The notes beneath the pieces were generated by a model. That model made no database searches and was not told the DNA's origin. It saw nothing but the letters and a program-made list of their open reading frames with translations. Shown here one piece after another: positions 16,613 to 48,084 of a stretch of 64,000 nucleotides of DNA (position 1 is its first letter; every line of letters starts with the position of its first letter). The translations under genes were made by a program, and so were the position numbers. Source of the DNA: Verrucomicrobiota bacterium. GTDB lineage: Bacteria; Verrucomicrobiota; Verrucomicrobiia; JABWAM01. The stretch spans positions 819-64,818 of the forward strand of contig JACQHZ010000291.1 of NCBI GenBank assembly GCA_016198745.1. Direction: 5' to 3'.

Positions 16613-17650
16613 TCAGAAGTTGTCCGTGCCGCTCCAGAAAAGGAATCCCTGCGCTCGCAGGAAATCGGCGAGCGCGTCGCTCCCGATAACGCGGTGCGGG
16701 AAGGTCGGCGAACGTCGCAGCAGGCGGACCATGCCGCCATATTGTTCGGCCAGTTCGATCCGCAGCGGGGACTGCTTTTCCAGATCCTCGCTGCGCGGAA
16801 AGATGGCCGCCCAGCGGCGCTCCCATTCCGGCGACCAGAAATTGAGCGCAACCTTGCGCTGGCGCAACGCATGTCTCGCCACCGCCGCGAGAACAGGTTT
16901 CCAGGAAGCCTGGTCACGCGCTGCAACTTCGACCACGGTCTTCCGGTCGGGCGCGACAAGAAAATAACCGGCCGTATTTCCTTGGATTTGAACCACGCAA
17001 ATCGTGAAGCGCGGCACCCATTTTGAGCCGTGCGGGGTCTGGCGATGGCGCAGCCAATCGGACCAGTATTCCCGGTTGCGCACCGCGCCGCCCCAGCCGC
17101 CGCGATTGGAAAACGCATAGCAAGTCTGGAGAAACGAAACGTCGCTTTCCCATCGCACGGCGCGCACCCGCACCTGGCGCGCGATGGGATCAAAGCATTT
17201 TGACTCGAAATGAATCGTCGCCTTCCATGCTGGAACGATTCGATAACCCGATCCGCCATAGACCTTCGGATTACCGAACAGAAATGCAAAATCGAATTTG
17301 CGCCGCGCCATCCAGGCGTGCGAAAACGCCAACAGCTTGCGGATCAATCCGCGCCCGCGCCAGGCCGGCCGCGTGAAGACATTGCCGATGCATCCCGCGC
17401 GCGCGACGCCGGCGCCCGCGCGGAGGCGGCGCTCGAAAACATGCAAGCCCGACGCAATCCTGCCGTCAACGGTGACGACGTGCGTGTGCGCCGCTGTGGT
17501 TCCCGGATCGCGCCTCAAAGTTTCCAACGCCCAGTCCGGGTTCTGCTTGAACGCGCCGCCGTACTGGCGGAACGACTCGGCCATTGCCTCGGCAATCGCC
17601 GCAATCTCGGTAGCGCGCGCCTCACGAACGCGAATGGATTCCGTCTTCAT
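16613..17650 (-). CDS. GNAT family N-acetyltransferase (Eis-like, with C-terminal extension)
   Basis: 345 aa. The N-terminal GNAT fold signature is IRVREARATEIAAIAEAMAESF...GIGNVFTRPAWRGRGLIRKLL. Its first 70 codons are duplicated at 40130-40344. Confidence 0.7.
   Translation of the reverse strand: MKTESIRVREARATEIAAIAEAMAESFRQYGGAFKQNPDWALETLRRDPGTTAAHTHVVTVDGRIASGLHVFERRLRAGAGVARAGCIGNVFTRPAWRGRGLIRKLLAFSHAWMARRKFDFAFLFGNPKVYGGSGYRIVPAWKATIHFESKCFDPIARQVRVRAVRWESDVSFLQTCYAFSNRGGWGGAVRNREYWSDWLRHRQTPHGSKWVPRFTICVVQIQGNTAGYFLVAPDRKTVVEVAARDQASWKPVLAAVARHALRQRKVALNFWSPEWERRWAAIFPRSEDLEKQSPLRIELAEQYGGMVRLLRRSPTFPHRVIGSDALADFLRAQGFLFWSGTDNF
17440..17650 (-). repeat. Direct repeat copy A (5' 210 bp of GNAT gene)
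   Basis: About 85-90% nucleotide identity to 40130-40344 in the same orientation. Homology begins exactly at the ATG and ends after codon 70 or so. Confidence 0.7.
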
Positions 17651-20472: not shown

Positions 20473-23178
20473 TCACAGGACTTCGAACCCGTACACCGCC
20501 AGCCGCCGCGTCGCGGTAACCCCCGCCAGGAAACACGTTTGCGGGCCGCCAAGCATCGGCATTTCGGGGTTGGCAAATTTGTGTTCGGGATCGAAGCCCG
20601 ATTCGAGGCCGATTTGAAAGCAATGCCTGCTGTCGGGCAGTCCCGCCGCCAGCAGCCGTCGCTGCATGATTCGTCGAGGATAGTACAGCCGCAGGCGCTG
20701 CGGAGGTTGTTCGTCGATCCGTACGATCGCAGTTCCAGCATGGGGCGAGGTTTCGATCAGCGCCACCAAGCCATCGCCCTGAAACTCACCGCAGATCGCC
20801 GCGCCCGTTTGCGTCGTCACCGCAAGTCGGTCGTTCGCCTCCTGCCAGCGCCCGTTCCGTTGAAGCGACGGATGATCGACGCTCAAGAAGGACCTGATCC
20901 GACGGGCATATCCCTTGATCGTTCGGTAGGAATAGCCGCGCAGGTAACAGCCGTTCCGACTGGCGCCGTTGTCGGACGATCTTACCCCCAAGAGGTCGTA
21001 GGTGAGGTAAGCCTGCCCGGCGCATTCATCAACCAGCAGGCCGTTATTCATGCTCGAATAGCCGTACCAACCGAAGTGGGCAGCCATTTCATGAATCCGG
21101 TCATCCTCAACGCAGACCTGCGTTTCAAACGACTCCCCGTTGTCGCAACTCACCGCCAGGATGATTCCGGGGCGGCCGATGGTTAAAAACAACGTCCCAT
21201 CCCGCAGAGTCCGAAGTTGCGGAGCAACTCCGCAAAGACCTGTTCGTTCAGGCGGACTCCAGGTGCGTCCGTTGTCGTCCGAAACACTCTTCATCAACGC
21301 CTGATTGAACCCTCCCGTTCGCGCTACCATCAATATCCGACCATTCGCGAGCTGGACTGCCGCCGCTTCGCAATAACCTTCTTCTCGAAGCCCGTCGTCG
21401 CGCATCGGCACAGCCACAGCGCGCCAGCGACGGAGATCGTCGCTGGCCAACACAAGCATTGAAGATCGCTCGTCGCCGGGAAGGATGCCATCCGCGAACA
21501 ACAAATAGCCGCCATCCTTAAGCGCCAGCAGTTGGTCGAGCGCCAACGGCATTCGCCCGCCGTTGTAACCGGCCATATCCACACGCGCCTGAACCAGTTC
21601 CTCATGTTGGTCTGTAGCGGTGAGCCGCAGGGTGAACGAGTCGGGGCATGCCTGTTCTCGGGGCATAATCCGACCATCGGGCAGCGCGTTTGTCACGTGC
21701 GGGAAAGAACACCAGCGTCCATCCGGGAGTTTAACGGCAGGGCGACCGTGGCCGGGTTCGACGGGTCGGTGGTTCTTCCACGTCCGCCCGTCGTCATCGC
21801 TTTCCGCCTGATGACGCGACGGGCGGGCGCGTTCGTTCACGCCGGGCAGGTGATCCGGTCTGCACACGTACTTGACGATCAATTTGCCGCTTTCTTTGCT
21901 GAGGACGTTGGGAAACCAGCAGTAGCTCGGCGCCGAGATGATTTCGTGGCGCGGCCCTGGTTCGAGAAACACGACGTTCGCGGGCGGTTCATACTGACCT
22001 GGCAAGGGACACGTGGACTCCATCGCCAGCAACACATCTTCCGCCGTAAAACGCCCCGGCGTCAACCGCCAGCTTCTCAACCATCCGTCCAGTTCTGCTG
22101 CGACATTCGGGTCGGCGAGCATTCCGCCCAGGGCGCAGCCGCCAACGACCATTGTCTCCCCGACCCGCAGCGGGTCCAACGCGTGAGCTTTGACCTGCTG
22201 CACGCAAGCATGGGATTGTCCGTTCCAGTAAATCGTCGCCGCTCCGTCCTCGTCCCAAACGGCCGCCGCATGATGCCAGGAGTGGGAGCGAAAGCCCTGC
22301 CCAAGGCACCACTCCCAGTAATACATCCACGGACACGGTTTTTCGCCGGCGTGAAGAAGAGGCTCCTGATTTTCCGCGCCGAAACTGAAGTACCCGTGTG
22401 CCATGTCGAAGAAGATATGGTTCGGGTGCGCCGCTTCCCACGCCGGCTGAAACCAGAAATCAATCATCCCGGATTTCGGAATCGAGCCGCGCGGAACGCG
22501 GACTTCGAGGCGATCGCGATCTCGCGCTTCGCCTCCGGGCACCCAGCTTCCCGGACACGGGAACAGCACGGACCGCCGGGCCGTTCGATAGGTTGTGACA
22601 AACGGCTCAAGCATCAGGCCATCCACGAACATCTCACCTTCTTCGACAATGACCGCCGCTTCGAGAGATCGCTTGGCCATCGGACCATCCAGCGCCACAC
22701 ACCAGCGTTGCCGGCGATCCACGACCATGAAGCCACGCTGAACTTCCAGGCTGTTGAGACCATCACGCAGTCTCAGCGACACCTTGCCGTGGCCGCGAAC
22801 ATGAGCCGAAAGTTGATAGATGACGCCGACGAAGGTCGTGCCTTCGTCCGATAGTTCGCCGAGCGAATCCCGGTGCAGCAAAGGCAGCGGCAAGATCGCA
22901 GGGCGATGGGAAGCGCGGATCAAAAGGCCGCGCCCCTTCTGGAACTCCAGGCCGTCGATCCTTGCCCAATCCTCGGGGACTCCCTGGAACGGCGCAAACT
23001 CTCGTGGCAACAGATTGCGCGTTTGTCGTCCAAGAAACAGGGCGGGTCCCGCCTTGGTGTTTTCGATGTGGGGAACGTTCGGGCCGGCGACACGGACGAA
23101 GTCGCTGCTCCACGAACTGCTGTTGCGCTGGAAGCGGCAAGGGCCGGAAAGGCCGGTGATAAACTTTTCCAGATTCAT
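20473..23178 (-). CDS. LamG (concanavalin-A-like) domain plus BNR/Asp-box sialidase-like propeller protein
   Basis: Start MNLEKFITGL at 23178 overlaps the sulfatase stop. Asp-boxes are SDDDGRTW, SDDNGRTW and SCDNGESF. The N-terminal 250 aa have a LamG-like beta-sandwich pattern. Confidence 0.6.
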   Translation of the reverse strand: MNLEKFITGLSGPCRFQRNSSSWSSDFVRVAGPNVPHIENTKAGPALFLGRQTRNLLPREFAPFQGVPEDWARIDGLEFQKGRGLLIRASHRPAILPLPLLHRDSLGELSDEGTTFVGVIYQLSAHVRGHGKVSLRLRDGLNSLEVQRGFMVVDRRQRWCVALDGPMAKRSLEAAVIVEEGEMFVDGLMLEPFVTTYRTARRSVLFPCPGSWVPGGEARDRDRLEVRVPRGSIPKSGMIDFWFQPAWEAAHPNHIFFDMAHGYFSFGAENQEPLLHAGEKPCPWMYYWEWCLGQGFRSHSWHHAAAVWDEDGAATIYWNGQSHACVQQVKAHALDPLRVGETMVVGGCALGGMLADPNVAAELDGWLRSWRLTPGRFTAEDVLLAMESTCPLPGQYEPPANVVFLEPGPRHEIISAPSYCWFPNVLSKESGKLIVKYVCRPDHLPGVNERARPSRHQAESDDDGRTWKNHRPVEPGHGRPAVKLPDGRWCSFPHVTNALPDGRIMPREQACPDSFTLRLTATDQHEELVQARVDMAGYNGGRMPLALDQLLALKDGGYLLFADGILPGDERSSMLVLASDDLRRWRAVAVPMRDDGLREEGYCEAAAVQLANGRILMVARTGGFNQALMKSVSDDNGRTWSPPERTGLCGVAPQLRTLRDGTLFLTIGRPGIILAVSCDNGESFETQVCVEDDRIHEMAAHFGWYGYSSMNNGLLVDECAGQAYLTYDLLGVRSSDNGASRNGCYLRGYSYRTIKGYARRIRSFLSVDHPSLQRNGRWQEANDRLAVTTQTGAAICGEFQGDGLVALIETSPHAGTAIVRIDEQPPQRLRLYYPRRIMQRRLLAAGLPDSRHCFQIGLESGFDPEHKFANPEMPMLGGPQTCFLAGVTATRRLAVYGFEVL

Positions 23179-24551
23179 CTTGCGTGTCCGTATGTTGATC
23201 GCAGCCAGGTCTCCAGCTTGTCGCGGAGCAGCCTGGCCTGGAGCGGTGGTTCCTTTACACCAAAGCACAGGTTGTTCAACTCGTGCGGATCGGCGGCTAA
23301 ATCATACAAGGTGTCGAACCGTTGCTCGGGCCAGCGCGTATAAGCCCAGCGCACGTCGCGGTAGCGCCATTTGTTCGGCTCCGCAAACATGAACGCCTCG
23401 CGTCTTGGCGGGCGGGCGCCTTTGATCGGATCGAGCAAATTGAATCCCTGACAGTGGCGTGGCACGGGCGCCCCGGCTGCCGAAAGAATCGTTGGCATGA
23501 GGTCCACGTTTGTTGAAAACTCCGCGCAAGTGCCGCTCGGCACTTGCCCGGGCCAACGGATCAAGAGCGGCACCTTCATGTCGGCGTCACACGGCAGATA
23601 GGCTTTCCACAGGAGATCATGATCCCCGAGATAATCTCCGTGGTCGGAAGTAAAGATCACCAGAGTGTTTTCCGCCACCTCTTGCCGCTCCAGGAGCTTG
23701 AGCACACGACCGACCCATTCGTCGATCAAGGTCACGTTGCCGTAGTACAAAGCTCGAATCCGACGGATCTCAGCGTCGGGAATGCCCCACAAATTCAACT
23801 TTTCGATGCCGAACGCCGTCGTTTCCTCGCGCACGATCGGGGGAACTCGATCCAGTTCACCATCGGCCCGCCGCGGCGGCGGGACCTTTACGGGATCATA
23901 CATCGAGGCATACGGCTCGGGCGGATCATAGGGATCATGCGGACCGCAGAAGGAAACCCAGGCAAAGAACGGCCTTGACGCAAGCCTGCGTTCAGCGATC
24001 AATGTCTCCAACATCTCGATGCTTCGCTGTCCCACAAAGCCGTCAATATGATCTTCCGGGTTCAGCGGGCTGACCATCGCCTTGTTGGCTTTGCCGAAAC
24101 CGGGAGTTTGGTGGCCGATCACACGCCCTTGCAGGTCGTGGTCTCTGATGTGCGCTTGATACTCATCGGGTTCCTCCGCGTACTTGCCTTCGATGATAAC
24201 CCGTCGCTGAAAGCCACAGAGCGCATCCCACGGGACGAAATGCATTTTCCCGATGCCGACCGTGCGATAGCCGTGGGCGGACAGCAGGCCGGGCAACGTT
24301 GGCAAGCTCGATGGAACCCACCGGCCGGCCCCGCTTTGCATGACGCCGTGGATCGTCGGGTAAACGCCGGTGAGAATGCACGCGCGCGATGGCTGACAAG
24401 CCGCGGCGGCGCAATAGCTGTGAACGAAACGAACCCCTTCCGCCGCCAGCCGATCCAGGTTGGGAGTTAAGATCGAAGGATTGTCGTTCGCTCCGACCGC
24501 ATCCCAGCGTTGCTGATCGGTTGTGATGAGCAGGATGTTGGGCGAATTCAT
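23175..24551 (-). CDS. Sulfatase (S1 family, formylglycine-dependent)
   Basis: Contains ILLITTDQQRWDAVG and the CQPSRACILTG formylglycine motif (C-x-P-S-R), plus GKMHF and the C-terminal sulfatase pattern. 458 aa. Confidence 0.9.
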   Translation of the reverse strand: MNSPNILLITTDQQRWDAVGANDNPSILTPNLDRLAAEGVRFVHSYCAAAACQPSRACILTGVYPTIHGVMQSGAGRWVPSSLPTLPGLLSAHGYRTVGIGKMHFVPWDALCGFQRRVIIEGKYAEEPDEYQAHIRDHDLQGRVIGHQTPGFGKANKAMVSPLNPEDHIDGFVGQRSIEMLETLIAERRLASRPFFAWVSFCGPHDPYDPPEPYASMYDPVKVPPPRRADGELDRVPPIVREETTAFGIEKLNLWGIPDAEIRRIRALYYGNVTLIDEWVGRVLKLLERQEVAENTLVIFTSDHGDYLGDHDLLWKAYLPCDADMKVPLLIRWPGQVPSGTCAEFSTNVDLMPTILSAAGAPVPRHCQGFNLLDPIKGARPPRREAFMFAEPNKWRYRDVRWAYTRWPEQRFDTLYDLAADPHELNNLCFGVKEPPLQARLLRDKLETWLRSTYGHAR

Positions 24552-24699: not shown

Positions 24700-26100
24700 T
24701 CATGCCGGTAGTTTGTTGATCAGGTCCAATGCCTGTTGTGTCAAGTGCTCCCCGGCGCCCAACGCATAGGGCAACGGACGCGCGCCCGGCGCCAGTTTGG
24801 CGTAGCGCTGCGCGGTGTACATTTCGTAGCCGCCATGCCGGCGGCTCTCATCCAAGCCGATATAACCATCGGATCCGTTGCTCATCGCCATGAGCAGGGT
24901 CTCGCGCAAGGGGCTTCGCGCGGCCAGGGTCAGGCCAAATTCCGTGAAAGGCTCTCCGGAATAAAAAACCAAGCCCAGATCATCAATCACCCAAACGTTG
25001 ACCTCGGAAGGCCAGGTCGCGGGGAACTTCCGCCCCGCTTGGATCGCTTCCCTCATCCGTTGCGCCCACTCCGCAAGCGGGCGGACGCTGCCTTTCTTGT
25101 CTTCCACCGACCAATCCTTCTTGCAATTAAAGCCGAGCACCCATTCGAGGCTTGGGTCTTTGTCGAGCGCGGCAATGAACGCCTCGACTTCTGCGATCTC
25201 CCTCTCCAAGAGTTCGACGGGAGGCGGCGGATCAAGGGGAAGCTCGATTGTTCGCGAGCCCGTCACAAACCGGCGCGGCCCGGCGGTCTGGATGCCTTTA
25301 AACACCTGCGCTGCTGCATTGGCGAGGTTGAGGCCGAGATCCTTGGAGTCCTTTTCCATGCCGAACATCGGAATGCAATTCACATCGCCGCACGCTCCCA
25401 GTCCGAACAGGACCGGAGCGCCCGTCGCGACGGTTTCGCTGACTCGCTCGGTCATGTAACCGGGATATTCGCCCGAGAGCGGCGCATTGAAGATCACACA
25501 AGCTGGATGGGCCGCGAATCGAATCCAGCCGGCGATCGGTTTGCCGTTTTGATCGTCAATGCGGATCACGTTCAACCGCGGGTCGATCGGCCGTCCCGCC
25601 GCCAATCCTTCGCGAAAGTCGCGGGTGAACTTCACGCCACCGTTCGGCAAGCGGACCTGGGTGTTGAACGAGGCGCCCGCGATGTACGTGATCCCTTGCC
25701 CAAACCGGGCGGGCCGCCGTGCATCCCAAGCGGTCAGCGCCGCCTCCAGGGAGCGCGACTTGATGAAGTCGAACAACGGATGTTCGCCGGCGAGAGGCTC
25801 GAGAAATGGCGTCGAATGACTGTGGGTGGCCGAGATGATGATCTCTTCGGGACGAAGAGCGGTGTGTTGGCTAATCGCTTGTCGAAGCTCGACGCAGTGT
25901 TCCGCCGGTATGAAGACCAGATCGAGCGCCACCATCAGCGCTCGCCTTGAACCGGACGACAACGCCAGCGCTTTCGCCTGCAGACGGGAACCTGGCGCCC
26001 CCCACTGAACCCTCATATTGGAGTGCAACCCAGGATTGATCATCTCGGGCGACAAGGTAAGGTCACGCGCTGACGCACCGGCATGAAACGATCCATTCAT
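24700..26100 (-). CDS. Neutral/alkaline ceramidase-like hydrolase (low-confidence family call)
   Basis: The ORF table extends to 26745, but the upstream 215 codons are Arg/Gly-rich junk that overlaps the MFS gene. The start MNGSFHAGASARDL at 26100 is chosen. Motif IISATHSHSTP resembles the neutral ceramidase N-terminal domain. Confidence 0.4.
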   Translation of the reverse strand: MNGSFHAGASARDLTLSPEMINPGLHSNMRVQWGAPGSRLQAKALALSSGSRRALMVALDLVFIPAEHCVELRQAISQHTALRPEEIIISATHSHSTPFLEPLAGEHPLFDFIKSRSLEAALTAWDARRPARFGQGITYIAGASFNTQVRLPNGGVKFTRDFREGLAAGRPIDPRLNVIRIDDQNGKPIAGWIRFAAHPACVIFNAPLSGEYPGYMTERVSETVATGAPVLFGLGACGDVNCIPMFGMEKDSKDLGLNLANAAAQVFKGIQTAGPRRFVTGSRTIELPLDPPPPVELLEREIAEVEAFIAALDKDPSLEWVLGFNCKKDWSVEDKKGSVRPLAEWAQRMREAIQAGRKFPATWPSEVNVWVIDDLGLVFYSGEPFTEFGLTLAARSPLRETLLMAMSNGSDGYIGLDESRRHGGYEMYTAQRYAKLAPGARPLPYALGAGEHLTQQALDLINKLPA

Positions 26101-26855
26101 GAACGCCTTTCGGAAATCGCGGGGTGGTTTTCCCCCATCAAGCGGCTGGACAACCGCCGCAGCAGGGAAAGTTCGACGATCAAAGCGAACGCGCCAGCCA
26201 CGGCCAGCGATTCCTTCACTCCCAGGATCCGGGCCATCAGTCCGGCGCTGGCTTCGCCGAGAATGTTCCCGACCAGCATGGTGGCCATCAGTCGGCCGAC
26301 TTGCGGGACCACGTGATCCACGGAGGTATGTTGTGCGGCCATCTGGATCAGGCTCGGGAAGAACAAGCCGTGACCCGTCCCAAACAGCAAACCGATCATG
26401 GCGAACTCGCCGGGTTGCGACGCGAACGCAAGCGCCAGGGCGCCGAACGGCACCAAGCAACCCGTCGCCACCAGCCCAACCCCCGGCAAAAGATGCCTCA
26501 ATCGCGTTTCCAAGAAGGCGCGCGACAAAAATGCGCTGGCGCCATACCAGCCGGTTAAGGTACAACCGCGACAACCAATCCTTCCAATGGCGCGGCCCCC
26601 GGTCGCCGTCCCCGCAAGAAAAGCGAAACTGAAAGCCGCCATGATCCACCCATGCCACGCGAGGTCGAGTCCCTCGCGTTGAAACAAGCGTGGCAAAAGG
26701 AGCATGAGACTCATGGATCCGCCGATCAGAATCTGGCCAATCCATACGACCATCATCCCCGACCGCTTTTCGTCACCGGGGTTCATGACGGTGTTGTTCC
26801 TTTCACCGGCCGCCCGCCCTCGCGTTTCGGAGGAAATTGAAGATGCCATGAACAA
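26097..26855 (-). CDS. MFS transporter, half-length (6-TM, 252 aa); possible split or decayed gene
   Basis: Hydrophobic segments throughout with an MFS-like pattern. It overlaps both neighbours, by 72 nt with the upstream gene and by 4 nt with the downstream gene. Confidence 0.5.
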   Translation of the reverse strand: MFMASSISSETRGRAAGERNNTVMNPGDEKRSGMMVVWIGQILIGGSMSLMLLLPRLFQREGLDLAWHGWIMAAFSFAFLAGTATGGRAIGRIGCRGCTLTGWYGASAFLSRAFLETRLRHLLPGVGLVATGCLVPFGALALAFASQPGEFAMIGLLFGTGHGLFFPSLIQMAAQHTSVDHVVPQVGRLMATMLVGNILGEASAGLMARILGVKESLAVAGAFALIVELSLLRRLSSRLMGENHPAISERRS

Positions 26856-27913
26856 TGGGCGCAGGCGGCCGGGCCATGCGCGGCGAAGACGCCGCCCAGA
26901 CGAAAAAGCTCGGGGTGGCTGCCGTTGGCTTTACAGAGCGGAATCGAATTTCCAAACGCCTCATGGCAACCGGCGAAGGCCGGGCAATCCTCGCGGACCA
27001 CGTCGCCAGCCTTCGCTGGTGCGATCGGTTGGGGCGGAATCGCGAAGGATTTCGCCCCCCCCTGCCGGCCGCGCTTCCGGGCTCTTAGCATTGCCGCCGC
27101 CTTTTGCAGCGCATCCAGAGCCAGATCGTCGCTTCCACGATCGGGTGGGCGCAGCACCAGACAATACGGATCATCCGCGAATAGGGTTGCCATGAAGCAG
27201 TCGAAATCCCGCGCGCGCATCAGCCCCGAAACACTCTTGCCGATGGGACCGGTTTTGAGAATGCCTGCGGCCCGGCAGACATCCTGCATGACGCCGGGGT
27301 ATTCATACTGAATGCGTCGGCCCGTCACGCAATGATTGAGATGTCTTTCCTTGGGCCAATAATGGCCTAAGTAAGGCACTTGAAGAATCTCTTCGTAGTA
27401 ATGCCAAAGCGTCACGGTGTTGACCTGCACGCCAAGAGTCAGAATGCAGCCATCGAGTTGAAGCAACGCTTCGAATGGATTCCCCCGCCCGCATGGCGTG
27501 GGCGATGCGCGGTGCCCCTCCACCAACCGCTCCGCTGAAGCTCCCAAGGCAACCCACGAATGCGTTGGATGGCAACTACGCAAACTGCCCGTGCGCTGTC
27601 GCACTTCTTCGGCGATCACGCCCTGAAAACCCGGCAACTTGCTCGGACAAAGACGCTGCGGACAACGAGCAGCGCAATCGCTGTTGGTGAAATTGGCGGG
27701 GTCGCCCCAGACGCTGTCGCGGAAAGCGGGAACAAGCAAGGTCCCGCGCGGGCCGACTGCTTCGAGCAGGGCATCGACGACGGTGGTTGCGCCGCCTTCG
27801 ACATGTCCGAGCGCGCTGAGCGAACTGTGCATCATCACCGCATCGCCCGCGCGCACGCCGAGCGCGCGCAGGTCGCGGACGATTCGTGATGGGCCAATAC
27901 CAGACGCCTTCAT
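26783..27913 (-). CDS. AAC(3)-family (aminoglycoside N3-acetyltransferase-like) acetyltransferase with a Cys-rich C-terminal extension
   Basis: The N-terminus (DLRALGVRAGDAVMMHSSLSALGHVEGGATTVVDALLEAVGPRGTLLVP) closely matches the Antibiotic_NAT family signature. At 376 aa it is longer than the usual 270 aa or so. The tail contains CPAFAGCHEAFGNSIPLCKANG...ACAHCSWH. Confidence 0.7.
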   Translation of the reverse strand: MKASGIGPSRIVRDLRALGVRAGDAVMMHSSLSALGHVEGGATTVVDALLEAVGPRGTLLVPAFRDSVWGDPANFTNSDCAARCPQRLCPSKLPGFQGVIAEEVRQRTGSLRSCHPTHSWVALGASAERLVEGHRASPTPCGRGNPFEALLQLDGCILTLGVQVNTVTLWHYYEEILQVPYLGHYWPKERHLNHCVTGRRIQYEYPGVMQDVCRAAGILKTGPIGKSVSGLMRARDFDCFMATLFADDPYCLVLRPPDRGSDDLALDALQKAAAMLRARKRGRQGGAKSFAIPPQPIAPAKAGDVVREDCPAFAGCHEAFGNSIPLCKANGSHPELFRLGGVFAAHGPAACAHCSWHLQFPPKREGGRPVKGTTPS

Positions 27914-27915
27914 CC

Positions 27916-29325
27916 TCAGGTTCGTTCCAATGTTTTCAAGGCGCGGTCCAGCAGCGCCTTGACCTTCTGCTCCGTGGCTTCATCCATGCCCGGCGCCGGA
28001 TCGGGGCCGGCCATGATCTCTTCCCACCGACGACGCGCGCGATCTTCCAGGGAAGTTCCATCCTTGCTCTGCCAAAAATGAAATCCACTGTGGCTGAACA
28101 ACGGCGCCTTCCACAACGCCGTGCGCACATGTGCCGCCGTGTGGTCGGCGCCAATGAAACCGCCCCCTGCTCCAACGGCGCGGATGGTTTCAAAAGCCAG
28201 GTGTTCATCATCAAACGATTCACGCCGGCCGAGGCGATTCAAGGCGTCGGCCAGCTCATCATCGATGATCAACTGGATCGGGCTGCAGACTTCGTCGCCG
28301 GAGAGGAGACCCGCGTTGATCGTGGCGGCATTGAAATACAGCAGGGACGGAATCACGGTCAGCATTTTCTGTGCCGCCGCCTCCGAGCCGGGTTGCTTGG
28401 CATCCGCCAGCCCGGTCTGGCCCACGTGCTGCGCGCCATAGAACCGCGCCATTTGGCCGTGGAGCAGGTTGGCCACCGCATTTTCCGGACGGCCATAACA
28501 GTAGGCCGCCCGCCGCATATCCAGCGGCAGAATGGAGCAAAGAAAATTCAACGTTCGGGTTCCATAGTACAGACGCTGTAAAATGTTGCAGAAAATGTCC
28601 TCGGCCAGGTGTTGCGCCAGCGCGCCCGCGAGCGTAATCGGTCCGCTGCCGCCCAGGGTCGTCATATTGGAGATCGAACACGGATAACCGCGTTCAGCGA
28701 AGTAGAGGAACTGCTCGGCATCCGTAGCGGCAAGTTTGAGCGGCGAGATAAGGAACATCGTGCCGCGCATGGATTCTTTCAGCGGCATGCCGAGCGCCTC
28801 CGCGCGCAAACCATGGAACTCTTCGATGAAGGGGCATAGTTCCAAACTCTGAATGCCCTGGTCCATGTCGATGCCCAACTTCCAGCAAAGATATTTCACA
28901 TGGAGCGGATGGATCCGGTGCGGCGCCGGCACCGGACAACCCAGGGTGCCGATGCCAGTGACGTTGGGCATCGCCTTGGCCGTCTTCACGTACGAGGCCA
29001 TCCGATCCTCCGTCCAATCCTCGAATTGATTGGTTCTCGGATTCAGGTATTTCCCGATGTAAATGCCAACGCTGCACTCCACGCGCGGTTCCGCGACGCG
29101 CTCCGCGGCGGGTTCCGACTCGCCGATAAACCGCTCAATCAACGCCTGGGGAAAACGTGCGACCTGGGTCGTCCGGTTGACATCCGCCCCAAAATCAACC
29201 AGTCGATCAAGAATTCGGTTGCTCTCGATCTTGACGCCGATTTCCGCCAGGATGCGCAACACAGCGCGGTGGATGCGTTCCTTCTCGCTCGCAGTCAGTT
29301 GTTGAAAGCCATGGATCGTTTCCAT
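27916..29325 (-). CDS. MttB-superfamily (trimethylamine methyltransferase family) protein, non-pyrrolysine member
   Basis: Start METIHGFQQLTASEKERIHRAVLRILAEIGVKI at 29325 gives 469 aa. The N-terminal motif and length match the MttB/MtgB family. There is no in-frame TAG. It is translationally coupled to the AAC(3)-like gene (stop/start overlap at 27913-27916). Confidence 0.7.
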   Translation of the reverse strand: METIHGFQQLTASEKERIHRAVLRILAEIGVKIESNRILDRLVDFGADVNRTTQVARFPQALIERFIGESEPAAERVAEPRVECSVGIYIGKYLNPRTNQFEDWTEDRMASYVKTAKAMPNVTGIGTLGCPVPAPHRIHPLHVKYLCWKLGIDMDQGIQSLELCPFIEEFHGLRAEALGMPLKESMRGTMFLISPLKLAATDAEQFLYFAERGYPCSISNMTTLGGSGPITLAGALAQHLAEDIFCNILQRLYYGTRTLNFLCSILPLDMRRAAYCYGRPENAVANLLHGQMARFYGAQHVGQTGLADAKQPGSEAAAQKMLTVIPSLLYFNAATINAGLLSGDEVCSPIQLIIDDELADALNRLGRRESFDDEHLAFETIRAVGAGGGFIGADHTAAHVRTALWKAPLFSHSGFHFWQSKDGTSLEDRARRRWEEIMAGPDPAPGMDEATEQKVKALLDRALKTLERT

Positions 29326-29329
29326 TGTT

Positions 29330-32023
29330 TCACCGTATATGTTTGGCGCGCGCGGCGATTTCAGCTTCCGCCAGCGCGCGATTATAGATTTCAGCCTGGC
29401 CGAATGACCCGGCAAAATAATCGCCGATTTCCTCCACGGCGCCTTCGGGATACAACGTGTTGCCGTTGCGTCCGAAATGGATATCGCCGGCGTGCGCCGG
29501 CAACTCGGCAGCAGCGCCGGCAGCCGCCTTTTTCCCGTCCACGTAAAGGATCAACCGATCCGCCGCTACGGTGGCGCCCGCTTGGTTCAGCACAAGCGCC
29601 GCGTGATGCCATTTGTTCGGCTCGATTTGATCGTACGTAAGCCATGTCCCCGGCCAGACCGCCTTTGCCCACATGCCTCCTCGCAGGGCGCCTTTGTGGA
29701 TAAAGAGATTGAGGCCGTTCCCAGATCCGCCTTCCTCATACAACATCTGGCGTTTGGTCACATCGGCCGCCCTGAACCATAGAAGAACGGTGCGATTGGC
29801 GTAGGGACCGCCCGAATTGATCGTCGGGCAATTCAACACGGAGACATAACTCTCCTTTCCGTCAAGTTCCAGTGCTGCGCCTCGCTGCGGATCATCCACC
29901 CAGTTGCTTCCCGCGACGAAGCCGAGATTGTTGTTGCCCGACGAGTCGTAAAGGAAACGATAACAGGGTTTGTACCAGCGCCCCGCGCCCCAGATCCACT
30001 GCAGCAAGCCCTGTGAGGGCGGGCGTTTTATGATGTAGCGCAGCACCAGGTCCTTCTCTGTCTGCAGACCGACGAATATCGGGACCGCGTGAGCAGCCTC
30101 GGCCTTCGCATCACCCGAGGCCCTAAGCTCGACAAGGTACTGGCCCGTCGAACTGAACGCGTGCGTCACTTTCTCGCCTTCGCCGTTCTTGCCGTCGCCG
30201 AAGTTCCACGTCAGTTTCGTCAGTTTTCCATTCGGCGCAAAAGGATCGAGCGCGGTGAATTCGACGGGCTTGCCTGACTCGACGAACTGCGACGCGACAC
30301 CAATCGCCACACTTGGCGGACCGCCGCGCCAGACCACGGTCATTTTTTTCGATTGTTCCGATACATGGAAAAATGCGCCTGCTTGCGGCACATCGACCGT
30401 GATTGGCCCGAATTCGGGCACGATGATCTCGACATTGAGGCGGGGGCGGCGCGGCGCGTGCGCATAGACGAGCCACTCGCGGGTCGGCGGTTTGCCTTTC
30501 GCCAGCGCAAGAGCGTACACGGGAATCTCGGTTTCGAGCGTCCACGGCCATTTTGCATCGAGACTCGTGTCGAGCAAAAACCAACGGTCCTCCTTCTTAT
30601 ACTCATCGGGAATGTCGGTCTGGTAGGGATGCTGATGGGCGCGATTGGGCACAAGTTCGCCTTTCCGCCAAAACTCGCGCAACACGGCGTTCGTATGGAC
30701 GCGGTCCACCGCCTCCACGATTGACATGAAATACGGCCCCGCGTACTCGACTGTCTCCAACCAACCGCGAAACTCGCGCACGACGCGCGGCCGCAACAAC
30801 CACATCCCGAACTGCACAAAACCGCCGTAACGCTCTGGCGTGAACGACTGTCCGAGGCGCGCATAGAATTTCCGTTTCGCGTTGGGTTGATCGGTCGCAT
30901 CGCCGTCCCATGTGGACATCTCGAACCAGAACCGCGGATTGAGCTTGTGCGCTTCTTGCAGCATAAAAATCCAGTTCATGGACTCGATCTGCGGACTCCA
31001 CACCGTGAAATCGGTGATCGGCATCCAGTTGTGGAGATAGTAGGAGGGCGAACCGCCGCCCCACGCCAGCGGCCCGGAATCAATCCGTCCGGGGAAATAC
31101 CCGGAGTACAGCTTCCAGTATTCAGGCGGTTCCATCGGCCGTCCCATGTGCGGAGGGCCGAGCACTTCATAACCAACGAACATGGCGTTCTTCTTCCACG
31201 CGGAATTGACCAATCCCTCCCGCATCGCCGCCTGCAACGCGCGGTAGCGTTCGATCCATCCTTCGGACACGACTCTGCGCTTGAAATCATCGTCGCGCCC
31301 CTTGCCATACCGTTCCAGGTATCCCTTGGAAGTCTCGACTTCATTCCATTGCAACTTCGAGTGTTCGTTGTTAGAAATGAAAATCACCAGCGGCGGATCG
31401 GGATACCATTCCTGGAGTTTCTTCATGAAGATGCCAGCCGTCCATTTGCCGCCCACTTCTCTCCAAGGTTCCACGGGGCCGAAGGGCGAGACCTTGGGTT
31501 GAATCGTGCCATCGAGTCCCGCCTCGTTGGGATTCTTTTCGGGTGGCAGATCGAGGTACGCCTTATCGGTGGTCAACAACGATTCCCACTGCGTGCCGAG
31601 AAACGTGAGAGGCAGTCTGAGTTGCGCCGCTTTTTGGATGCGCAACTCGTATTCCTTCATCTTGGCCTCGATCCACTTTTCACGCTCGGGGGCGCCCGGC
31701 TTCCATGTTTCCTGGAGCCACCGGTCCGTCGGCGGATGCGAAAACCAGGGCAGGACATGGCGCCCCTGATCGAGCAACTGAAACTGGTATTCTGGAGTGA
31801 ACCCATCGGCTCCGCCTTCGCCGACACCCCAATGCGCCGCCAATGGAAGTGGTCGTCCCGCTTCGCTGTGGTTCGGGCGGAGCGCCTCGACGCGGACCGC
31901 TTCGGGCACGGGCAGCGGTTTGTCCTCTGCCCTCGAATGTCCTGACGGCAAAAAGAGGGTCATCGCGTGGATGATGAAGATGGCGGTTGAGAGAATAGTC
32001 GTTGCGCCTCGCACGAGTCTCAT
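29330..32023 (-). CDS. Secreted multidomain protein: N-terminal glycoside-hydrolase-like region plus PKD domain plus C-terminal LamG domain
   Basis: Signal peptide present. The PKD signature is LTWNFGDGKNGEGEKVTHAFSSTGQYLVELRASGD. The C-terminal LamG pattern is RLILYVDGKKAA. 897 aa. Confidence 0.6.
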   Translation of the reverse strand: MRLVRGATTILSTAIFIIHAMTLFLPSGHSRAEDKPLPVPEAVRVEALRPNHSEAGRPLPLAAHWGVGEGGADGFTPEYQFQLLDQGRHVLPWFSHPPTDRWLQETWKPGAPEREKWIEAKMKEYELRIQKAAQLRLPLTFLGTQWESLLTTDKAYLDLPPEKNPNEAGLDGTIQPKVSPFGPVEPWREVGGKWTAGIFMKKLQEWYPDPPLVIFISNNEHSKLQWNEVETSKGYLERYGKGRDDDFKRRVVSEGWIERYRALQAAMREGLVNSAWKKNAMFVGYEVLGPPHMGRPMEPPEYWKLYSGYFPGRIDSGPLAWGGGSPSYYLHNWMPITDFTVWSPQIESMNWIFMLQEAHKLNPRFWFEMSTWDGDATDQPNAKRKFYARLGQSFTPERYGGFVQFGMWLLRPRVVREFRGWLETVEYAGPYFMSIVEAVDRVHTNAVLREFWRKGELVPNRAHQHPYQTDIPDEYKKEDRWFLLDTSLDAKWPWTLETEIPVYALALAKGKPPTREWLVYAHAPRRPRLNVEIIVPEFGPITVDVPQAGAFFHVSEQSKKMTVVWRGGPPSVAIGVASQFVESGKPVEFTALDPFAPNGKLTKLTWNFGDGKNGEGEKVTHAFSSTGQYLVELRASGDAKAEAAHAVPIFVGLQTEKDLVLRYIIKRPPSQGLLQWIWGAGRWYKPCYRFLYDSSGNNNLGFVAGSNWVDDPQRGAALELDGKESYVSVLNCPTINSGGPYANRTVLLWFRAADVTKRQMLYEEGGSGNGLNLFIHKGALRGGMWAKAVWPGTWLTYDQIEPNKWHHAALVLNQAGATVAADRLILYVDGKKAAAGAAAELPAHAGDIHFGRNGNTLYPEGAVEEIGDYFAGSFGQAEIYNRALAEAEIAARAKHIR

Positions 32024-38277: not shown

Positions 38278-39681
38278 CTAGAATGGGTAGTCTCCCCCGT
38301 TGGGATGAACGCTACGACCTTCCACGAAACTCCACGAATACCAGGCGACATGCCAATCACAGAAGAGGACGTTGATCCCATTCGAATGCCTTGGAAACGC
38401 GTAGGAGGTGGGTATGGTGAAAGTGCTTGATTGATAAAATCCGCCGTCGAAGCAGAAACAAATCCTCGATGGAATCGGGACGGCCAACGCGGATGACTCA
38501 AGCACTTGATACTTGATCGGATTGGTGAACAAGTAGCTTCTGCCGTAGGTCGTGTCGATGCCCGGTTCGCCGGGCATCGGGGTTGACGGACAATCCACGC
38601 TGCATGGATAAGCAACGCGCGTGCCCAACGGTCCGCCATACTGCGGATATTTCTTGCCGAGGTACCCCATCCAATCCAGCGTGGCAACTCCGCGCAGCCA
38701 TTCCGGCCAGGGCGCGAAATAGACGGAAGCCGGCGGAAGATACTCCTCATTGTCATTCATATACAGGACCAGCGCCGTTCCGATTTGCTTCAGGTTGTTC
38801 ATGCACGCAATCGATTTCGCCTGGTTTCTCGCCGATTTGAGCGATGGCATCAGCAGGGCAGCAAGAATGCTGATAATGGCGACCACCACCAGAAGTTCTA
38901 TTAAGGTGAAGCTCCGCTTGGACGACGCCCCGGTTCTTCGTTTCGGGATCATCTCGCCAACCGATCCCATGTGCCGCATCATCCATTGTCGGTCTTTTTC
39001 TTGGGCGGCGGCCGCAAGCAGATTCGAAAAGATTGGCGCCGTATGCCGGTAAACCAGTTCGACAGCGCCTTCCGCATCACGAGTTCGGAGAGCTTGAATG
39101 ATGCGACGGTGAGTGCGAAGGACGCCTTCGGTGTCCGCGCGATGGTTTTCGACGCTGACGCCGCTCATCCAACTGAACACCTGCACGTGCGCCCCCTGGA
39201 CGAGCGCCTCCACGCGCTGGCTGTTGGCGAGGCCGACCAACAGACGGTGAAACTCCAGGTCGTAATGATCCGCCGCGCGCCAGTCGCCCTTTCGCGACGC
39301 CGACTCCATCGCGTCGCAGGCGTGTTCCATTTCAGCCAGCTTGAACTCCGAGAACCCTCTTCGGCACGCGATCCGCACCGCAAGACACTCCAGCGCTGAG
39401 CGAATCTCGAAGGTCTCCTCAATTTCCTCCACCGTGCAATGCCGCACAAAAAACCCCGCATTTCGCACCCGCTCCACCAGTCCTTCGCCGACCAGTCGCA
39501 TCAGCGCCTCACGAATGTGAAATCGTCCTGCGCCGAGATGCTCGGCGAGCGGCGTCTCGGTCAGGTGCGTCTCCGGTGGAAATTGCCCTTCGAGAATTGC
39601 ATAACGAATTTCTGAGTACGCCCGATCCACCGGCGAACCGGCGGTCAAGGGCGGATTCAGCCTGGATTTCATTCTGATCAT
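38278..39681 (-). CDS. Fusion protein: GntR/FadR-family regulator (HTH plus FCD domain) fused in-frame to a pseudopilin-like TM helix and DUF1559 (H-X9-DG) domain
   Basis: - Residues 1-230: GntR HTH ([52 protein letters not shown]) plus an FCD-like helical domain.
- Basic linker: [11 protein letters not shown].
- Then [25 protein letters not shown] (N_methyl motif) and a DUF1559 domain ending [13 protein letters not shown].
- Single uninterrupted 467-codon ORF, first gene of the 11-gene operon. Confidence 0.75.
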
Positions 39682-47424: not shown

Positions 47425-48084
47425 GCGGGCACGTGCCCGTAATTTCACAGAATGACACATTGGCCAGTATTGTCAAGAGCATAGCTGAAAAAAAATTCCT
47501 CCTTACGTCCGGATTTGGGGGTGGCAAGACTTTTTTCTGGGTCGGTTTGGTCGCGCTTTTGAAGGAGCGTTGAGATTCGGTCTTGGAATTGGACATCGGG
47601 GATGAGCTTTCGGATTGGGGGTGGAACCTTTTCGATGTTGGCGTTGCCTGTCTGCCGTGCTCGGCACAGGCAGGCGACTCGATGAGTTCGCGGCGGACCA
47701 TGGCCACGTCGATTTGCGCGAAACGCGCTTCCAAGGTGGGTTGCCCGTTCAAGAGCACTTCCAGATGCTGGGGATTTTCCAGATTCTTTGCCAGGGGCGT
47801 ATCGGCGACCTGCCTGTGCGGCACGCAGACAGGTCATGGCCTGAAGCGTTCGGCTAATGCAGTGGTTGCCTGCCTGTGCGTGCCGCACGCAGACAGGCCG
47901 CTGCGGCGACGCGCGTCCGGCTCATCCAGATTCACCATCCCCGCCACGCGGATTGAGGGATCGAGCACGCGGAAGCAATTCTTGATCATCCAACTGACGC
48001 GCAACCCGTGCCCGATCACACCCAGCCGAAGCAGTTTGGATTTCATGATGCGAACTCTCCTCATTTCTGTTTCCGAAAAAACAC

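What the first reader, a model, noticed from the sequence alone, without database searches (positions are those of the whole stretch)
26783..27913. AAC(3)-like acetyltransferase with a Cys-rich C-terminal extension inside a glycan operon
The N-terminal 100 aa match the aminoglycoside N3-acetyltransferase family closely (VMMHSSLSALG, DALLEAVGPRGTLLVP). The protein is about 100 aa longer than typical AAC(3) enzymes, and the tail is Cys-rich (CPAFAGC, LCKANG, ACAHCSWH), suggesting a metal-binding module. The 3' end overlaps the MFS gene by 72 nt.

In this context, resistance is an unlikely role. The enzyme is more plausibly an N-acetylating glucosamine-type amines released after N-desulfation, analogous to the acetyl-CoA:glucosaminide N-acetyltransferase step of heparan degradation.
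Basis: partly seen in the sequence, partly recalled or inferred. Interest (0 to 1): 0.55.

Follow-up and report, generated by a model that had tools for sequence, protein, structure and literature searches.

The report
Cysteine-rich AAC(3)-fold acetyltransferase paired with amidase
This gene encodes an uncharacterised branch of the aminoglycoside-acetyltransferase fold that has eight conserved cysteines and a private C-terminal domain and usually sits beside a ceramidase-like amidase, so it is probably a metabolic amine-acetylating enzyme rather than an antibiotic-resistance gene.

Summary
ORF 26783..27913 (-) encodes a 376-aa protein with an Antibiotic_NAT/AAC(3) domain (Pfam E=7e-42) and about 110 extra C-terminal residues.

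The extension is not read-through. Homologues of about 355-380 aa cover 93-97% of the protein. The tail keeps C310, C327, C351 and C354 in 59 of 60 sequences. Four more cysteines (C80, C89, C114, C141) are conserved in the loops that form the acceptor pocket in canonical AAC(3) enzymes.

The catalytic motif (T168, H171, E174, G124, G161) is invariant. It is probably not a resistance enzyme:
- NCBIfam AAC(3) scores fall far below the curated cut-offs.
- The aminoglycoside-binding E185/D187 segment of AAC(3)-IVa has no counterpart.
- No antibiotic-related genes turned up in the neighbourhoods examined.

The tail profile hit only this family among 1.84 billion proteins, and has no Pfam or PDB match.

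The 72-nt overlap with the MFS gene comes from taking the longest ORF; the likely junction is a 4-nt ATGA overlap.

The N-desulfation idea is not supported. The adjacent sulfatase is arylsulfatase/choline-sulfatase-like. The only widely conserved partner is a neutral-ceramidase-like hydrolase, within 3 kb in 15 of 27 lineages.

Most likely it is a metal-stabilised N-acetyltransferase working with that amidase. Substrate and metal are unknown.

The parts
26783..27913 (-). Whole gene: 376-aa cysteine-rich Antibiotic_NAT-fold acetyltransferase (stop codon included)
   Evidence: ORF. Pfam PF02522 E=7e-42. An identical protein in NCBI nr is named 'MAG: AAC(3) family N-acetyltransferase [Verrucomicrobia bacterium]'.
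27128..27913 (-). Residues 1-262: Antibiotic_NAT / AAC(3) fold domain
   Evidence: The AF2 model (pLDDT 79.9) matches FrbF 3sma and AAC(3)-IVa 6mn3 at E about 1e-19 over about 260 columns. hhalign to AAC(3)-IVa gives probability 99%, residues 7-262.
27614..27721 (-). Residues 65-100: cysteine-bearing loop (C80, C89). It replaces the alpha4-alpha5 hairpin of the minor (acceptor-binding) subdomain
   Evidence: C80 57/60 and C89 60/60. The region corresponds to variable region 62-95 of meta-AAC0038 (PMC8956665). AF2 confidence is low here (pLDDT 54-64).
27392..27412 (-). Residues 168-174, TLWHYYE: the family catalytic motif TxΦHΦxE (T168, H171, E174)
   Evidence: Invariant in 60/60 sequences. The motif is defined in PMC8956665.
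27002..27127 (-). Residues 263-304: long helix (263-281) followed by a variable linker
   Evidence: AF2 secondary structure. The linker columns are variable and carry indels in the alignment.
26828..27001 (-). Residues 305-362: family-specific Cys4 tail domain. Motif: R-x-D-C-P-x-F ... L-C-x-A-N-x-x-H-P ... T-C-x-x-C-x-W
   Evidence: C310, C327, C351 and C354 are each 59/60. The tail profile hits only this family in 1.84e9 proteins. No Pfam hit and no PDB fold hit.
26097..26786 (-). Half-size MFS-like membrane protein (229 aa from ATG 26786), joined to the acetyltransferase by an ATGA overlap
   Evidence: MFS_1 matches only profile positions 2-172 of 347 and scores below the cut-off. Junction read. 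This gene is absent from the other loci.
24700..26100 (-). Neutral-ceramidase-like hydrolase (466 aa), the conserved partner gene
   Evidence: Profile against PDB: 2zws neutral ceramidase E=4e-16 and 4wgk E=8e-14. H95, H198 and E383 are invariant, H93 is present in the window protein, and Y413 and Y425 are kept in 9 of 11. It lies within 3 kb of the acetyltransferase in 15 of 27 lineages.
27916..29325 (-). MttB-superfamily protein immediately upstream, with no in-frame stop. The stop codon is 2 nt before the acetyltransferase ATG. The start at ATG 29325 is inferred.
   Evidence: PF06253 E=9e-51. This pairing was seen only in this window.
23175..24551 (-). S1 sulfatase downstream, arylsulfatase/choline-sulfatase-like
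   Evidence: Pfam Sulfatase. Best PDB match 7oz8, E=4e-61; S1_8 chains only about 1e-24. NCBIfam arylsulfatase and choline-sulfatase models match, both below cut-off.

Best explanation
The gene encodes a cytoplasmic, acyl-CoA-dependent N-acetyltransferase of the Antibiotic_NAT (AAC(3)/FrbF) fold. It belongs to a distinct, uncharacterised clade.

Shown:
- The His/Glu catalytic dyad and the other family-invariant residues are intact.
- The acceptor-binding minor subdomain is rebuilt around four conserved cysteines (C80, C89, C114, C141).
- A private 60-residue C-terminal domain carries four more (C310, C327, C351, C354).
- The only widely distributed neighbour is a neutral-ceramidase-like hydrolase that keeps the residues aligned with the ceramidase zinc and catalytic site.

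Inferred:
- The two cysteine sets bind structural metal, zinc being the simplest reading by analogy with the C-terminal zinc site of AAC(3)-IVa. That metal shapes a new, non-aminoglycoside acceptor pocket.
- The enzyme works with the amidase on one amine-bearing catabolite imported in glycan- or solute-utilisation loci. The amidase would unmask, or later re-expose, an amine, and this enzyme would acetylate an amine of the same molecule. This would be either an N-acyl exchange or a protect-and-process step.
- The substrate is unknown. An amino sugar or amino-sugar acid is the leading guess.
For: - Family membership and fold.
- Catalytic residues: T168, H171, E174, G124, G161 and H29 are invariant in 60 sequences. 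They correspond to Thr165, His168, Glu171, Gly122 and Gly158 of meta-AAC0038 (PMC8956665).
- Cysteine conservation down to 40% identity.
- Position of the first cysteine set: C80, C89, C114 and C141 map onto the three variable inserts that form the minor subdomain (PMC8956665).
- Tail domain: specific to this family (15 hits in 1.84e9 proteins, all family members or fragments except one repetitive false positive).
- Zinc precedent: AAC(3)-IVa has a CxxC-containing zinc site whose loss abolishes activity (PMC8956665; PMC7504452).
- Partner gene: the ceramidase-like gene lies within 3 kb in 18 of 70 loci, representing 15 of 27 lineages (groups at 75% identity). It is within 400 nt of the acetyltransferase in 12 loci (10 lineages) and, with one exception (L047), on the same strand; both gene orders occur. 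The loci come from Verrucomicrobiota, Planctomycetota, Desulfobacterales, Opitutaceae and others.
- Metagenome support: two closer relatives show the same pair in called genes. Eighteen contig lengths coincide exactly between the homologue lists of the two proteins.
- Tight packing in the window: the upstream stop lies 2 nt before the acetyltransferase ATG, and two ATGA overlaps follow.
- Other neighbours fit catabolism: SSF transporters, GntR/FCD regulators, class III aminotransferase, HpcH aldolase, oxidoreductases and BNR_2 proteins.
Against: - No biochemical data exist for any member.
- About 45% of lineages lack the ceramidase-like neighbour within 3 kb, so the pairing is not obligatory.
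- Metal binding is inferred from conservation only. AF2 is least confident exactly at the cysteine loops (pLDDT 54-64).
- The cysteine spacing is mostly single residues with only one CxxC. This is not a textbook zinc ribbon and would also fit an Fe-S cluster.
- An acetyltransferase and an amidase acting on the same amide would form a futile cycle, so the logic needs two different acyl groups or two different amines. That is speculative.
Confidence: 0.5

Rival explanations
1. The enzyme re-acetylates glucosamine residues exposed by N-desulfation of heparan-like glycans, as a functional analogue of HGSNAT.
For: - A sulfatase lies two genes downstream and matches the SGSH_C Pfam domain.
- A heparinase II/III-like lyase lies about 14 kb away at 41597-44959.
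- Sulfatases occur within 3 kb in 5 loci.
- Acetylation of an amino sugar is compatible with everything seen.
Against: - The sulfatase is closest to arylsulfatase/choline-sulfatase-type enzymes (7oz8, E=4e-61). Chains labelled S1_8 score only about 1e-24.
- SGSH_C is probably a generic S1-sulfatase C-terminal domain (my knowledge of the family, not tested here).
- Sulfatases are never adjacent to the acetyltransferase and occur in only 4 of 27 lineages. The conserved partner is an amidase.
Confidence: 0.12
2. It is a genuine aminoglycoside 3-N-acetyltransferase, an environmental resistance gene or intrinsic resistance determinant.
For: - Antibiotic_NAT fold with an intact catalytic dyad.
- Many environmental members of this family do acetylate aminoglycosides (PMC8956665).
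Against: - NCBIfam AAC(3) models score at half or less of their cut-offs.
- The segment carrying E185/D187 of AAC(3)-IVa is absent, and D67 aligns to a variable column.
- The window protein's acetyltransferase domain has pI 8.1 and the family median pI is 6.4, against 5.7 for AAC(3)-IVa.
- The minor subdomain is rebuilt.
- No mobile-element or antibiotic context was seen in 70 loci.
Confidence: 0.07
3. The cysteine sets bind iron-sulfur clusters rather than zinc. This would make the enzyme redox- or oxygen-responsive, or give it chemistry beyond acetyl transfer.
For: - Eight to nine conserved cysteines, mostly widely spaced single residues and not paired zinc knuckles.
- Many hosts are likely anaerobes (my knowledge of these groups): Spirochaetia, Desulfobacterales, Lentisphaeria, Sedimentisphaerales, Christensenellaceae.
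Against: - The family also occurs in marine Pirellulales, SAR202 and Opitutaceae, taken here as aerobes (my knowledge of these groups).
- The only metal precedent in the fold is structural zinc (PMC8956665).
- No ferredoxin-type motif is present and there is no Pfam Fe-S hit.
Confidence: 0.15
4. It is a biosynthetic tailoring acetyltransferase like FrbF, acting in natural-product or cell-envelope sugar synthesis.
For: - FrbF is the top profile and fold match.
- Aminotransferase and GFO_IDH_MocA oxidoreductase neighbours in some loci resemble amino-sugar biosynthetic trios.
Against: - No phosphonate, NRPS/PKS, nucleotidyl-sugar or glycosyltransferase genes were seen nearby.
- The neighbours are transporters, glycoside-hydrolase-like proteins, aldolases and catabolic regulators.
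Confidence: 0.06
5. The C-terminal extension is not real: read-through, a frameshift, or a fused neighbouring ORF.
For: None beyond the unusual length.
Against: - The same-length architecture appears in more than 100 homologues from many phyla.
- The tail has 57% mean column identity and invariant residues.
- The stop codon is coupled to the next gene by ATGA.
Confidence: 0.01

Closest known systems
[quoted passage not shown]
   Same: - Same fold; this is the best structural superposition (TM-score on target 0.77-0.80).
- It is the only solved relative that aligns through residue about 262.
- Same His/Glu dyad.
- It also has a C-terminal extension with a CxxC that binds zinc close to the acceptor pocket (PMC8956665, PMC7504452).
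   Different: - The IVa extension is about 20 residues with a C3H1 site. Here the extension is about 110 residues, with a long helix, a linker and a 60-residue Cys4 domain.
- IVa C247/C250 align to non-cysteine positions, around S261.
- The IVa aminoglycoside-binding segment with E185/D187 is absent.
- Four extra cysteines sit in the minor subdomain.
- NCBIfam AAC_3_IV scores 86 bits against a cut-off of 420.
FrbF (PDB 3sma), phosphonate FR-900098 biosynthetic N-acetyltransferase
   Same: - Top profile hit (E=7e-32) and top Foldseek hit.
- It shows that this fold is used for non-antibiotic metabolic amines.
   Different: - FrbF is 286 aa with no Cys-rich tail.
- Its context is a phosphonate biosynthetic cluster, which is absent here.
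YokD / BA2930-type chromosomal Antibiotic_NAT proteins of Bacillus (PDB 2nyg, 3e4f)
   Same: Chromosomal members of the fold with unclear physiological substrate. They match at E=1e-27 to 1e-28 with the family profile.
   Different: No conserved cysteine sets, no tail, and different neighbourhoods.
HGSNAT (lysosomal heparan-alpha-glucosaminide N-acetyltransferase)
   Same: Only the proposed chemistry: acetyl-CoA-dependent N-acetylation of an exposed amino-sugar amine during glycan breakdown.
   Different: By my knowledge, not tested here, HGSNAT is an unrelated multi-pass membrane protein family. No sequence or fold relationship is claimed. The N-sulfatase partnership was tested here and not found.
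Neutral ceramidase (PDB 2zws, 4wgk), for the partner gene
   Same: - The profile match covers the catalytic N-terminal domain.
- The HxH, His, Glu and two Tyr positions aligned with the zinc/catalytic site are kept.
   Different: - The partner is about 466 aa against 646-688 aa for the ceramidases, so the extra C-terminal portion is missing.
- Pfam scores are marginal or absent.
- No lipid context was seen in the annotated neighbours.

Membership tests
Antibiotic_NAT (PF02522) fold family | Pfam model matched above the gathering score | tested here: met
   144 bits against a cut-off of 25, residues 27-241
Antibiotic_NAT (PF02522) fold family | TxΦHΦAE motif with the catalytic His/Glu dyad, plus two invariant glycines (PMC8956665) | tested here: met
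   T168, H171, E174, G124 and G161 are invariant in 60 sequences. The Ala position is Tyr here.
Antibiotic_NAT (PF02522) fold family | Three-dimensional fold | tested here: met
   The AF2 model (pLDDT 79.9) matches 3sma, 6mn3 and 7lap by Foldseek at E=4e-19 to 4e-18, probability 1.00
Antibiotic_NAT (PF02522) fold family | Acetyl-CoA-dependent N-acetyl transfer | not testable with these tools
   Needs an enzyme assay
AAC(3) aminoglycoside-resistance enzymes (NCBIfam AAC_3 and subfamilies) | Score at or above the curated NCBIfam cut-off | tested here: not met
   AAC_3 134 against 270; AAC_3_II 111 against 480; AAC_3_VIII 102 against 560; AAC_3_VIa 88 against 675; AAC_3_IV 86 against 420
AAC(3) aminoglycoside-resistance enzymes (NCBIfam AAC_3 and subfamilies) | Acidic aminoglycoside-contacting residues (AAC(3)-IVa D67, E185, D187, E249) | tested here: not met
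   In the hhalign alignment, E185 and D187 fall in a 9-residue IVa segment with no counterpart, and D67 aligns to a variable Pro column. The IVa sequence was recalled from memory. Its numbering reproduces H154, C190, C247 and C250 as given in the papers.
AAC(3) aminoglycoside-resistance enzymes (NCBIfam AAC_3 and subfamilies) | Confers aminoglycoside resistance | not testable with these tools
   Needs MIC testing
Group 1 Antibiotic_NAT C-terminal C3H1 zinc site | CxxC at the position of AAC(3)-IVa C247/C250 | tested here: not met
   IVa C247 aligns near S261. The family has no cysteine there. An analogous CxxC lies about 90 residues later, at C351/C354.
FrbF-type biosynthetic acetyltransferases | Location in a phosphonate or natural-product biosynthetic cluster | tested here: not met
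   No such genes were found in the window or the annotated neighbours of the related loci
HGSNAT-like heparan N-acetylation step (functional analogy only) | Conserved partnership with an N-sulfoglucosamine sulfohydrolase (S1_8-type) | tested here: not met
   The window sulfatase best matches 7oz8 (4e-61) against S1_8 chains at about 1e-24. A sulfatase lies within 3 kb in 4 of 27 lineages and is never adjacent.
Neutral ceramidase family (partner gene 24700..26100) | Catalytic-domain homology and residues aligned with the zinc/catalytic site | tested here: met
   Profile against 2zws E=4e-16. H95, H198 and E383 are invariant, and H93, Y413 and Y425 are conserved. A related member passes the Pfam cut-off (34.5 against 32.1); the window protein itself does not.

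The most novel reading that the evidence does not exclude
The cysteine-rich acetyltransferase and the ceramidase-fold amidase form a previously unrecognised two-enzyme module. It would edit the N-acyl group of an imported amino sugar or nonulosonic-type acid: remove an unusual acyl group, then install acetyl, or protect one amine while another is processed. This would open otherwise indigestible glycan components to standard catabolism in Planctomycetota-Verrucomicrobiota, Acidobacteriota and related uncultured degraders. The acceptor pocket would be built on metal sites new to this fold, possibly Fe-S.
Probability: 0.2. Interest if true: 0.7.

Novelty: new variant of a known kind. Interest (0 to 1): 0.5.

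Why it matters
Databases label this protein an AAC(3)-family acetyltransferase, so resistome surveys can count it as an aminoglycoside-resistance gene. The evidence says it is a separate metabolic clade with a rebuilt substrate pocket.

The clade has an uncatalogued cysteine domain and a conserved amidase partner. The 62 loci recovered from the species-representative genome collection are all metagenome-assembled genomes, from several phyla of polysaccharide degraders.

Defining its substrate would assign function to two protein families that are currently 'hypothetical' or misnamed. It could also reveal a new amine-handling step in glycan or solute catabolism, and it would extend the known metal-site repertoire of the Antibiotic_NAT fold.

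Tried and rejected
- Tail-only structure and fold search. The AF2 model of residues 303-376 had low confidence (pLDDT 66.7). Foldseek against PDB gave nothing below E=2.8. No fold could be assigned.
- Model coordinates are not exposed, so cysteine-cysteine distances could not be measured.
- A PDB sequence search with residues 169-376 alone found only chance hits to the arginine repressor.
- A Pfam scan of 26 tails at E up to 10 gave only noise.
- The first neighbour census overstated Amidohydro_2 adjacency. The single-linkage cluster had chained in class III aminotransferases and alternative-frame ORFs lying over the acetyltransferase gene. It was redone with seed-based HMMs and envelope coordinates, and Amidohydro_2 dropped to 3 of 27 lineages.
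- The ceramidase-like profile also hit TAL-effector repeat proteins in PDB. I judged these compositional artefacts.
- The tail profile hit a 1391-aa repetitive protein, P0129. This is a spurious low-complexity match.
- Literature searches for the pair or the clade found nothing relevant. Only open-access papers are covered.
- The MttB-like gene as a conserved partner: rejected, because it was seen only in this window.
Full report
**1. The observation**

Pfam places residues 27-241 in PF02522 Antibiotic_NAT (E=7.2e-42, 144 bits against a cut-off of 25). The nearest solved proteins by sequence are AAC(3)-Xa 7lap (E=6e-29), FrbF 3sma and other AAC(3) enzymes. Their alignments stop near residue 180, except for AAC(3)-IVa, which aligns through residue 263. 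An identical protein is in NCBI nr as 'MAG: AAC(3) family N-acetyltransferase [Verrucomicrobia bacterium]' on an 81-kb contig.

**2. The extension is real**

The homologue search returned 291 proteins. The best 120 are mostly 355-380 aa long and cover 89-97% of the query (mostly 93-97%) at 55-72% identity. In a 31-sequence alignment the tail is as conserved as the catalytic domain.

I extended this to 60 non-redundant sequences, including relatives at 40% identity from the genome scan. Conservation of the key residues was:
- Tail cysteines: C310, C327, C351 and C354 are each present in 59/60.
C251 is present in 57/60.
- The second Cys of 'CPAFAGC' (C316) is not conserved.
- H29, H115, H118, H171 and H191 are invariant.

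Read-through or a frameshift is excluded.

**3. Gene junctions**

The claimed 72-nt overlap with the MFS gene comes from taking the first TTG (26855). An ATG at 26786..26784 overlaps the acetyltransferase stop codon TGA (26785..26783) as ATGA and has AAGGAA about 12 nt upstream. The MFS stop (26099..26097) overlaps the ATG (26100..26098) of the next gene in the same way. The upstream MttB-like gene stops 2 nt before the acetyltransferase ATG.

The MFS product is only 229 aa. It matches only one half of the MFS_1 model, below the cut-off.

**4. Is it an active enzyme, and of which kind?**

The family-defining motif TxΦHΦAE with its His/Glu dyad, and two invariant glycines (PMC8956665), are all present and invariant: T168, H171, E174, G124, G161. 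The AF2 model built on the family alignment (pLDDT 79.9, pTM 0.75) matches FrbF, AAC(3)-IVa and AAC(3)-Xa by Foldseek at about 1e-19 over about 260 columns. The best superposition is on AAC(3)-IVa (TM-score 0.77-0.80). An acyl-CoA-dependent N-acyl transfer is therefore the expected chemistry.

It is unlikely to be an aminoglycoside-resistance enzyme:
- All NCBIfam AAC(3) models score far below their curated cut-offs (134 against 270; 86-111 against 420-675).
- In a profile alignment to AAC(3)-IVa, the segment that carries the aminoglycoside-binding E185/D187 has no counterpart, and D67 aligns to a variable column.
- The window protein's acetyltransferase domain is basic (pI 8.1). The family median pI is 6.4, against 5.7 for AAC(3)-IVa.
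- No antibiotic-related or mobile-element context was seen around the acetyltransferase in any of the loci examined.

**5. The cysteines**

C80 and C89 lie in the region equivalent to variable region 62-95 of meta-AAC0038. C114 lies in region 110-117 and C141 in region 127-142. These are the three inserts that build the minor, acceptor-binding subdomain (PMC8956665). AF2 is least confident exactly there (pLDDT 54-64), which I take to be compatible with loops organised by a metal ion absent from the model.

After a long helix (263-281) and a variable linker, the tail forms a small domain (about residues 305-362). It has a beta-hairpin and short helices, with the motif R-x-D-C-P-x-F ... L-C-x-A-N-x-x-H-P ... 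T-C-x-x-C-x-W.

A profile of the tail alone, searched against 1.84 billion representative proteins, found 15 proteins. All were family members or their fragments, except one repetitive false positive. No Pfam model and no solved structure matches the tail, although that model had low confidence.

The fold has one metal precedent. AAC(3)-IVa and other Group 1 enzymes carry a C-terminal C3H1 zinc site, including C247/C250, near the acceptor pocket, and its mutation abolishes activity (PMC8956665; PMC7504452). Those cysteines align to non-cysteine positions here, so this is an analogous site and not the same one.

I infer two structural metal sites. Zinc is the simplest reading, and Fe-S is not excluded. 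I could not measure distances because model coordinates are not exposed.

**6. Genomic context**

In the window the gene lies in a minus-strand run:
- a PKD/LamG protein
- the MttB-like gene
- the acetyltransferase
- the half-size MFS
- a 466-aa protein
- a sulfatase
- a BNR_2/LamG protein
- a 944-aa protein of unknown family
- a GNAT acetyltransferase

GntR/FCD and LacI regulators, a GH42-like gene and a heparinase II/III-like lyase lie further away.

The 466-aa protein is a neutral-ceramidase homologue. Its family profile hits 2zws at E=4e-16 and 4wgk at E=8e-14. The HxH, His, Glu and two Tyr positions aligned with the ceramidase metal/catalytic site are conserved.

I collected 62 loci from species-representative genomes, all of them MAGs. 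They come from Verrucomicrobiota, Planctomycetota, Lentisphaeria, Latescibacterota, Dehalococcoidia/SAR202, Spirochaetia, Acidobacteriota, Desulfobacterales and Christensenellaceae. I added loci found by exact-protein look-up.

My first census was flawed by a chained cluster. A seed-based HMM census then gave these counts within 3 kb of the acetyltransferase:

| Neighbour | Loci (of 70) | Lineages at 75% identity (of 27) | Note |
|---|---|---|---|
| Ceramidase-like | 18 | 15 | 11 of 21 lineages when 3 kb is available on both sides |
| Amidohydro_2 | 13 | 3 | |
| SSF transporter | 7 | 4 | |
| Sulfatase | 5 | 4 | never adjacent |
| Class III aminotransferase | 3 | 3 | |
| HpcH aldolase | 3 | 3 | |
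| GntR/FCD | 3 | 3 | |

The ceramidase-like gene is within 400 nt of the acetyltransferase in 12 loci. With one exception (L047) it is on the same strand, and both gene orders occur.

Metagenomic contigs of closer relatives show aminotransferase-acetyltransferase-(470 aa) and GH94-(278 aa)-acetyltransferase-(467 aa) operons. Eighteen contig lengths coincide exactly between the homologue lists of the two proteins. The ceramidase-like amidase is therefore the one widespread partner.

**7.

The sulfatase next door is closest to arylsulfatase/choline-sulfatase-type enzymes (7oz8, 4e-61; NCBIfam arylsulfatase 283 bits and choline-sulfatase 206 bits, both below cut-off). Chains labelled S1_8 match only at about 1e-24. 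I consider the SGSH_C Pfam hit generic for S1 sulfatases; that is my knowledge of the family, not a test run here. Together with the weak sulfatase co-occurrence, the N-desulfation and re-acetylation scheme is not supported. Acetylation of some amino-sugar amine remains possible.

**8. Best explanation**

This is a cytoplasmic acetyl-CoA-dependent N-acetyltransferase with a metal-stabilised, non-aminoglycoside acceptor pocket. It acts together with a ceramidase-fold amidase on an imported amine-bearing catabolite, either as an N-acyl exchange or as a protect-and-process step.

Shown:
- Fold and catalytic residues.
- Conservation of the cysteines and the tail.
- Family specificity of the tail.
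- The partner association.

Inferred:
- Metal binding.
- The functional coupling.
- The substrate class.

Confidence is about 0.5.

**9. Novelty**

No member is characterised, and the accessible literature does not describe the clade or the pair. It is a new variant of a known fold family and not a new kind of system. Interest is moderate. The main reasons are that such genes can be miscounted as resistance genes, that the domain is uncatalogued, and that the acetyltransferase-amidase module gives a concrete, testable handle on an unknown catabolic step in uncultured glycan degraders.

Noticed in passing
window 26097..26786 (-): A half-size MFS-like protein (229 aa, matching one half of the MFS_1 model, below cut-off) sits between the acetyltransferase and the ceramidase-like gene. 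It is joined by ATGA overlaps on both sides. It is absent from every other acetyltransferase/ceramidase-like locus examined. It could be a remnant or a genuine half-transporter.
   Followed up: partly
window 27916..29415 (-): An MttB-superfamily protein with no in-frame stop lies directly upstream, its stop 2 nt before the acetyltransferase ATG, inside a glycan-type locus. No corrinoid protein was noticed nearby. URO-D-like genes flank the acetyltransferase in L009 and lie upstream of it in L072.
   Followed up: partly
L009 2472..11265: Three tandem ceramidase-like paralogues and three URO-D-like genes surround the acetyltransferase, in the order c3 c3 URO-D c3 NAT URO-D URO-D (c3 = ceramidase-like gene, NAT = the acetyltransferase).
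   Followed up: no
L062 7071..8027: A second Antibiotic_NAT paralogue (318 aa, 36% identity over 180 aa) lacks all the conserved cysteines and the tail. It lies in the same operon: paralogue, SSF transporter, Cys-rich acetyltransferase, ceramidase-like gene.
   Followed up: partly
window 38281..39681 and 45709..47460 (-): Two regulator ORFs (GntR/FCD and LacI/Peripla_BP) each continue in frame into a prepilin N-methylation motif plus a DUF1559 segment. These may be fusions or two genes merged by ORF calling.
   Followed up: no
window 23175..24551 (-): The sulfatase is closest to the PDB chain 7oz8, which is labelled choline-sulfatase, and to the NCBIfam arylsulfatase and choline-sulfatase models. 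Its SGSH_C Pfam hit does not indicate an N-sulfatase.
   Followed up: yes
window 16616..17650 (-): A GNAT (Acetyltransf_9) acetyltransferase lies at the end of the same minus-strand gene run. It is a second, unrelated acetyltransferase in the locus.
   Followed up: no
loci L008-L069: All 62 species-representative genomes carrying this family are metagenome-assembled genomes. No cultured isolate was recovered by the scan.
   Followed up: no
L003, L027-L034, L056 (Spirochaetia); L013, L017, L019 (Pirellulales group): In these lineages the acetyltransferase is adjacent to an Amidohydro_2 protein rather than the ceramidase-like gene. That protein has no PDB or NCBIfam match. Apiosidase-like, aldo-keto reductase and GDSL genes lie nearby.
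   Followed up: partly
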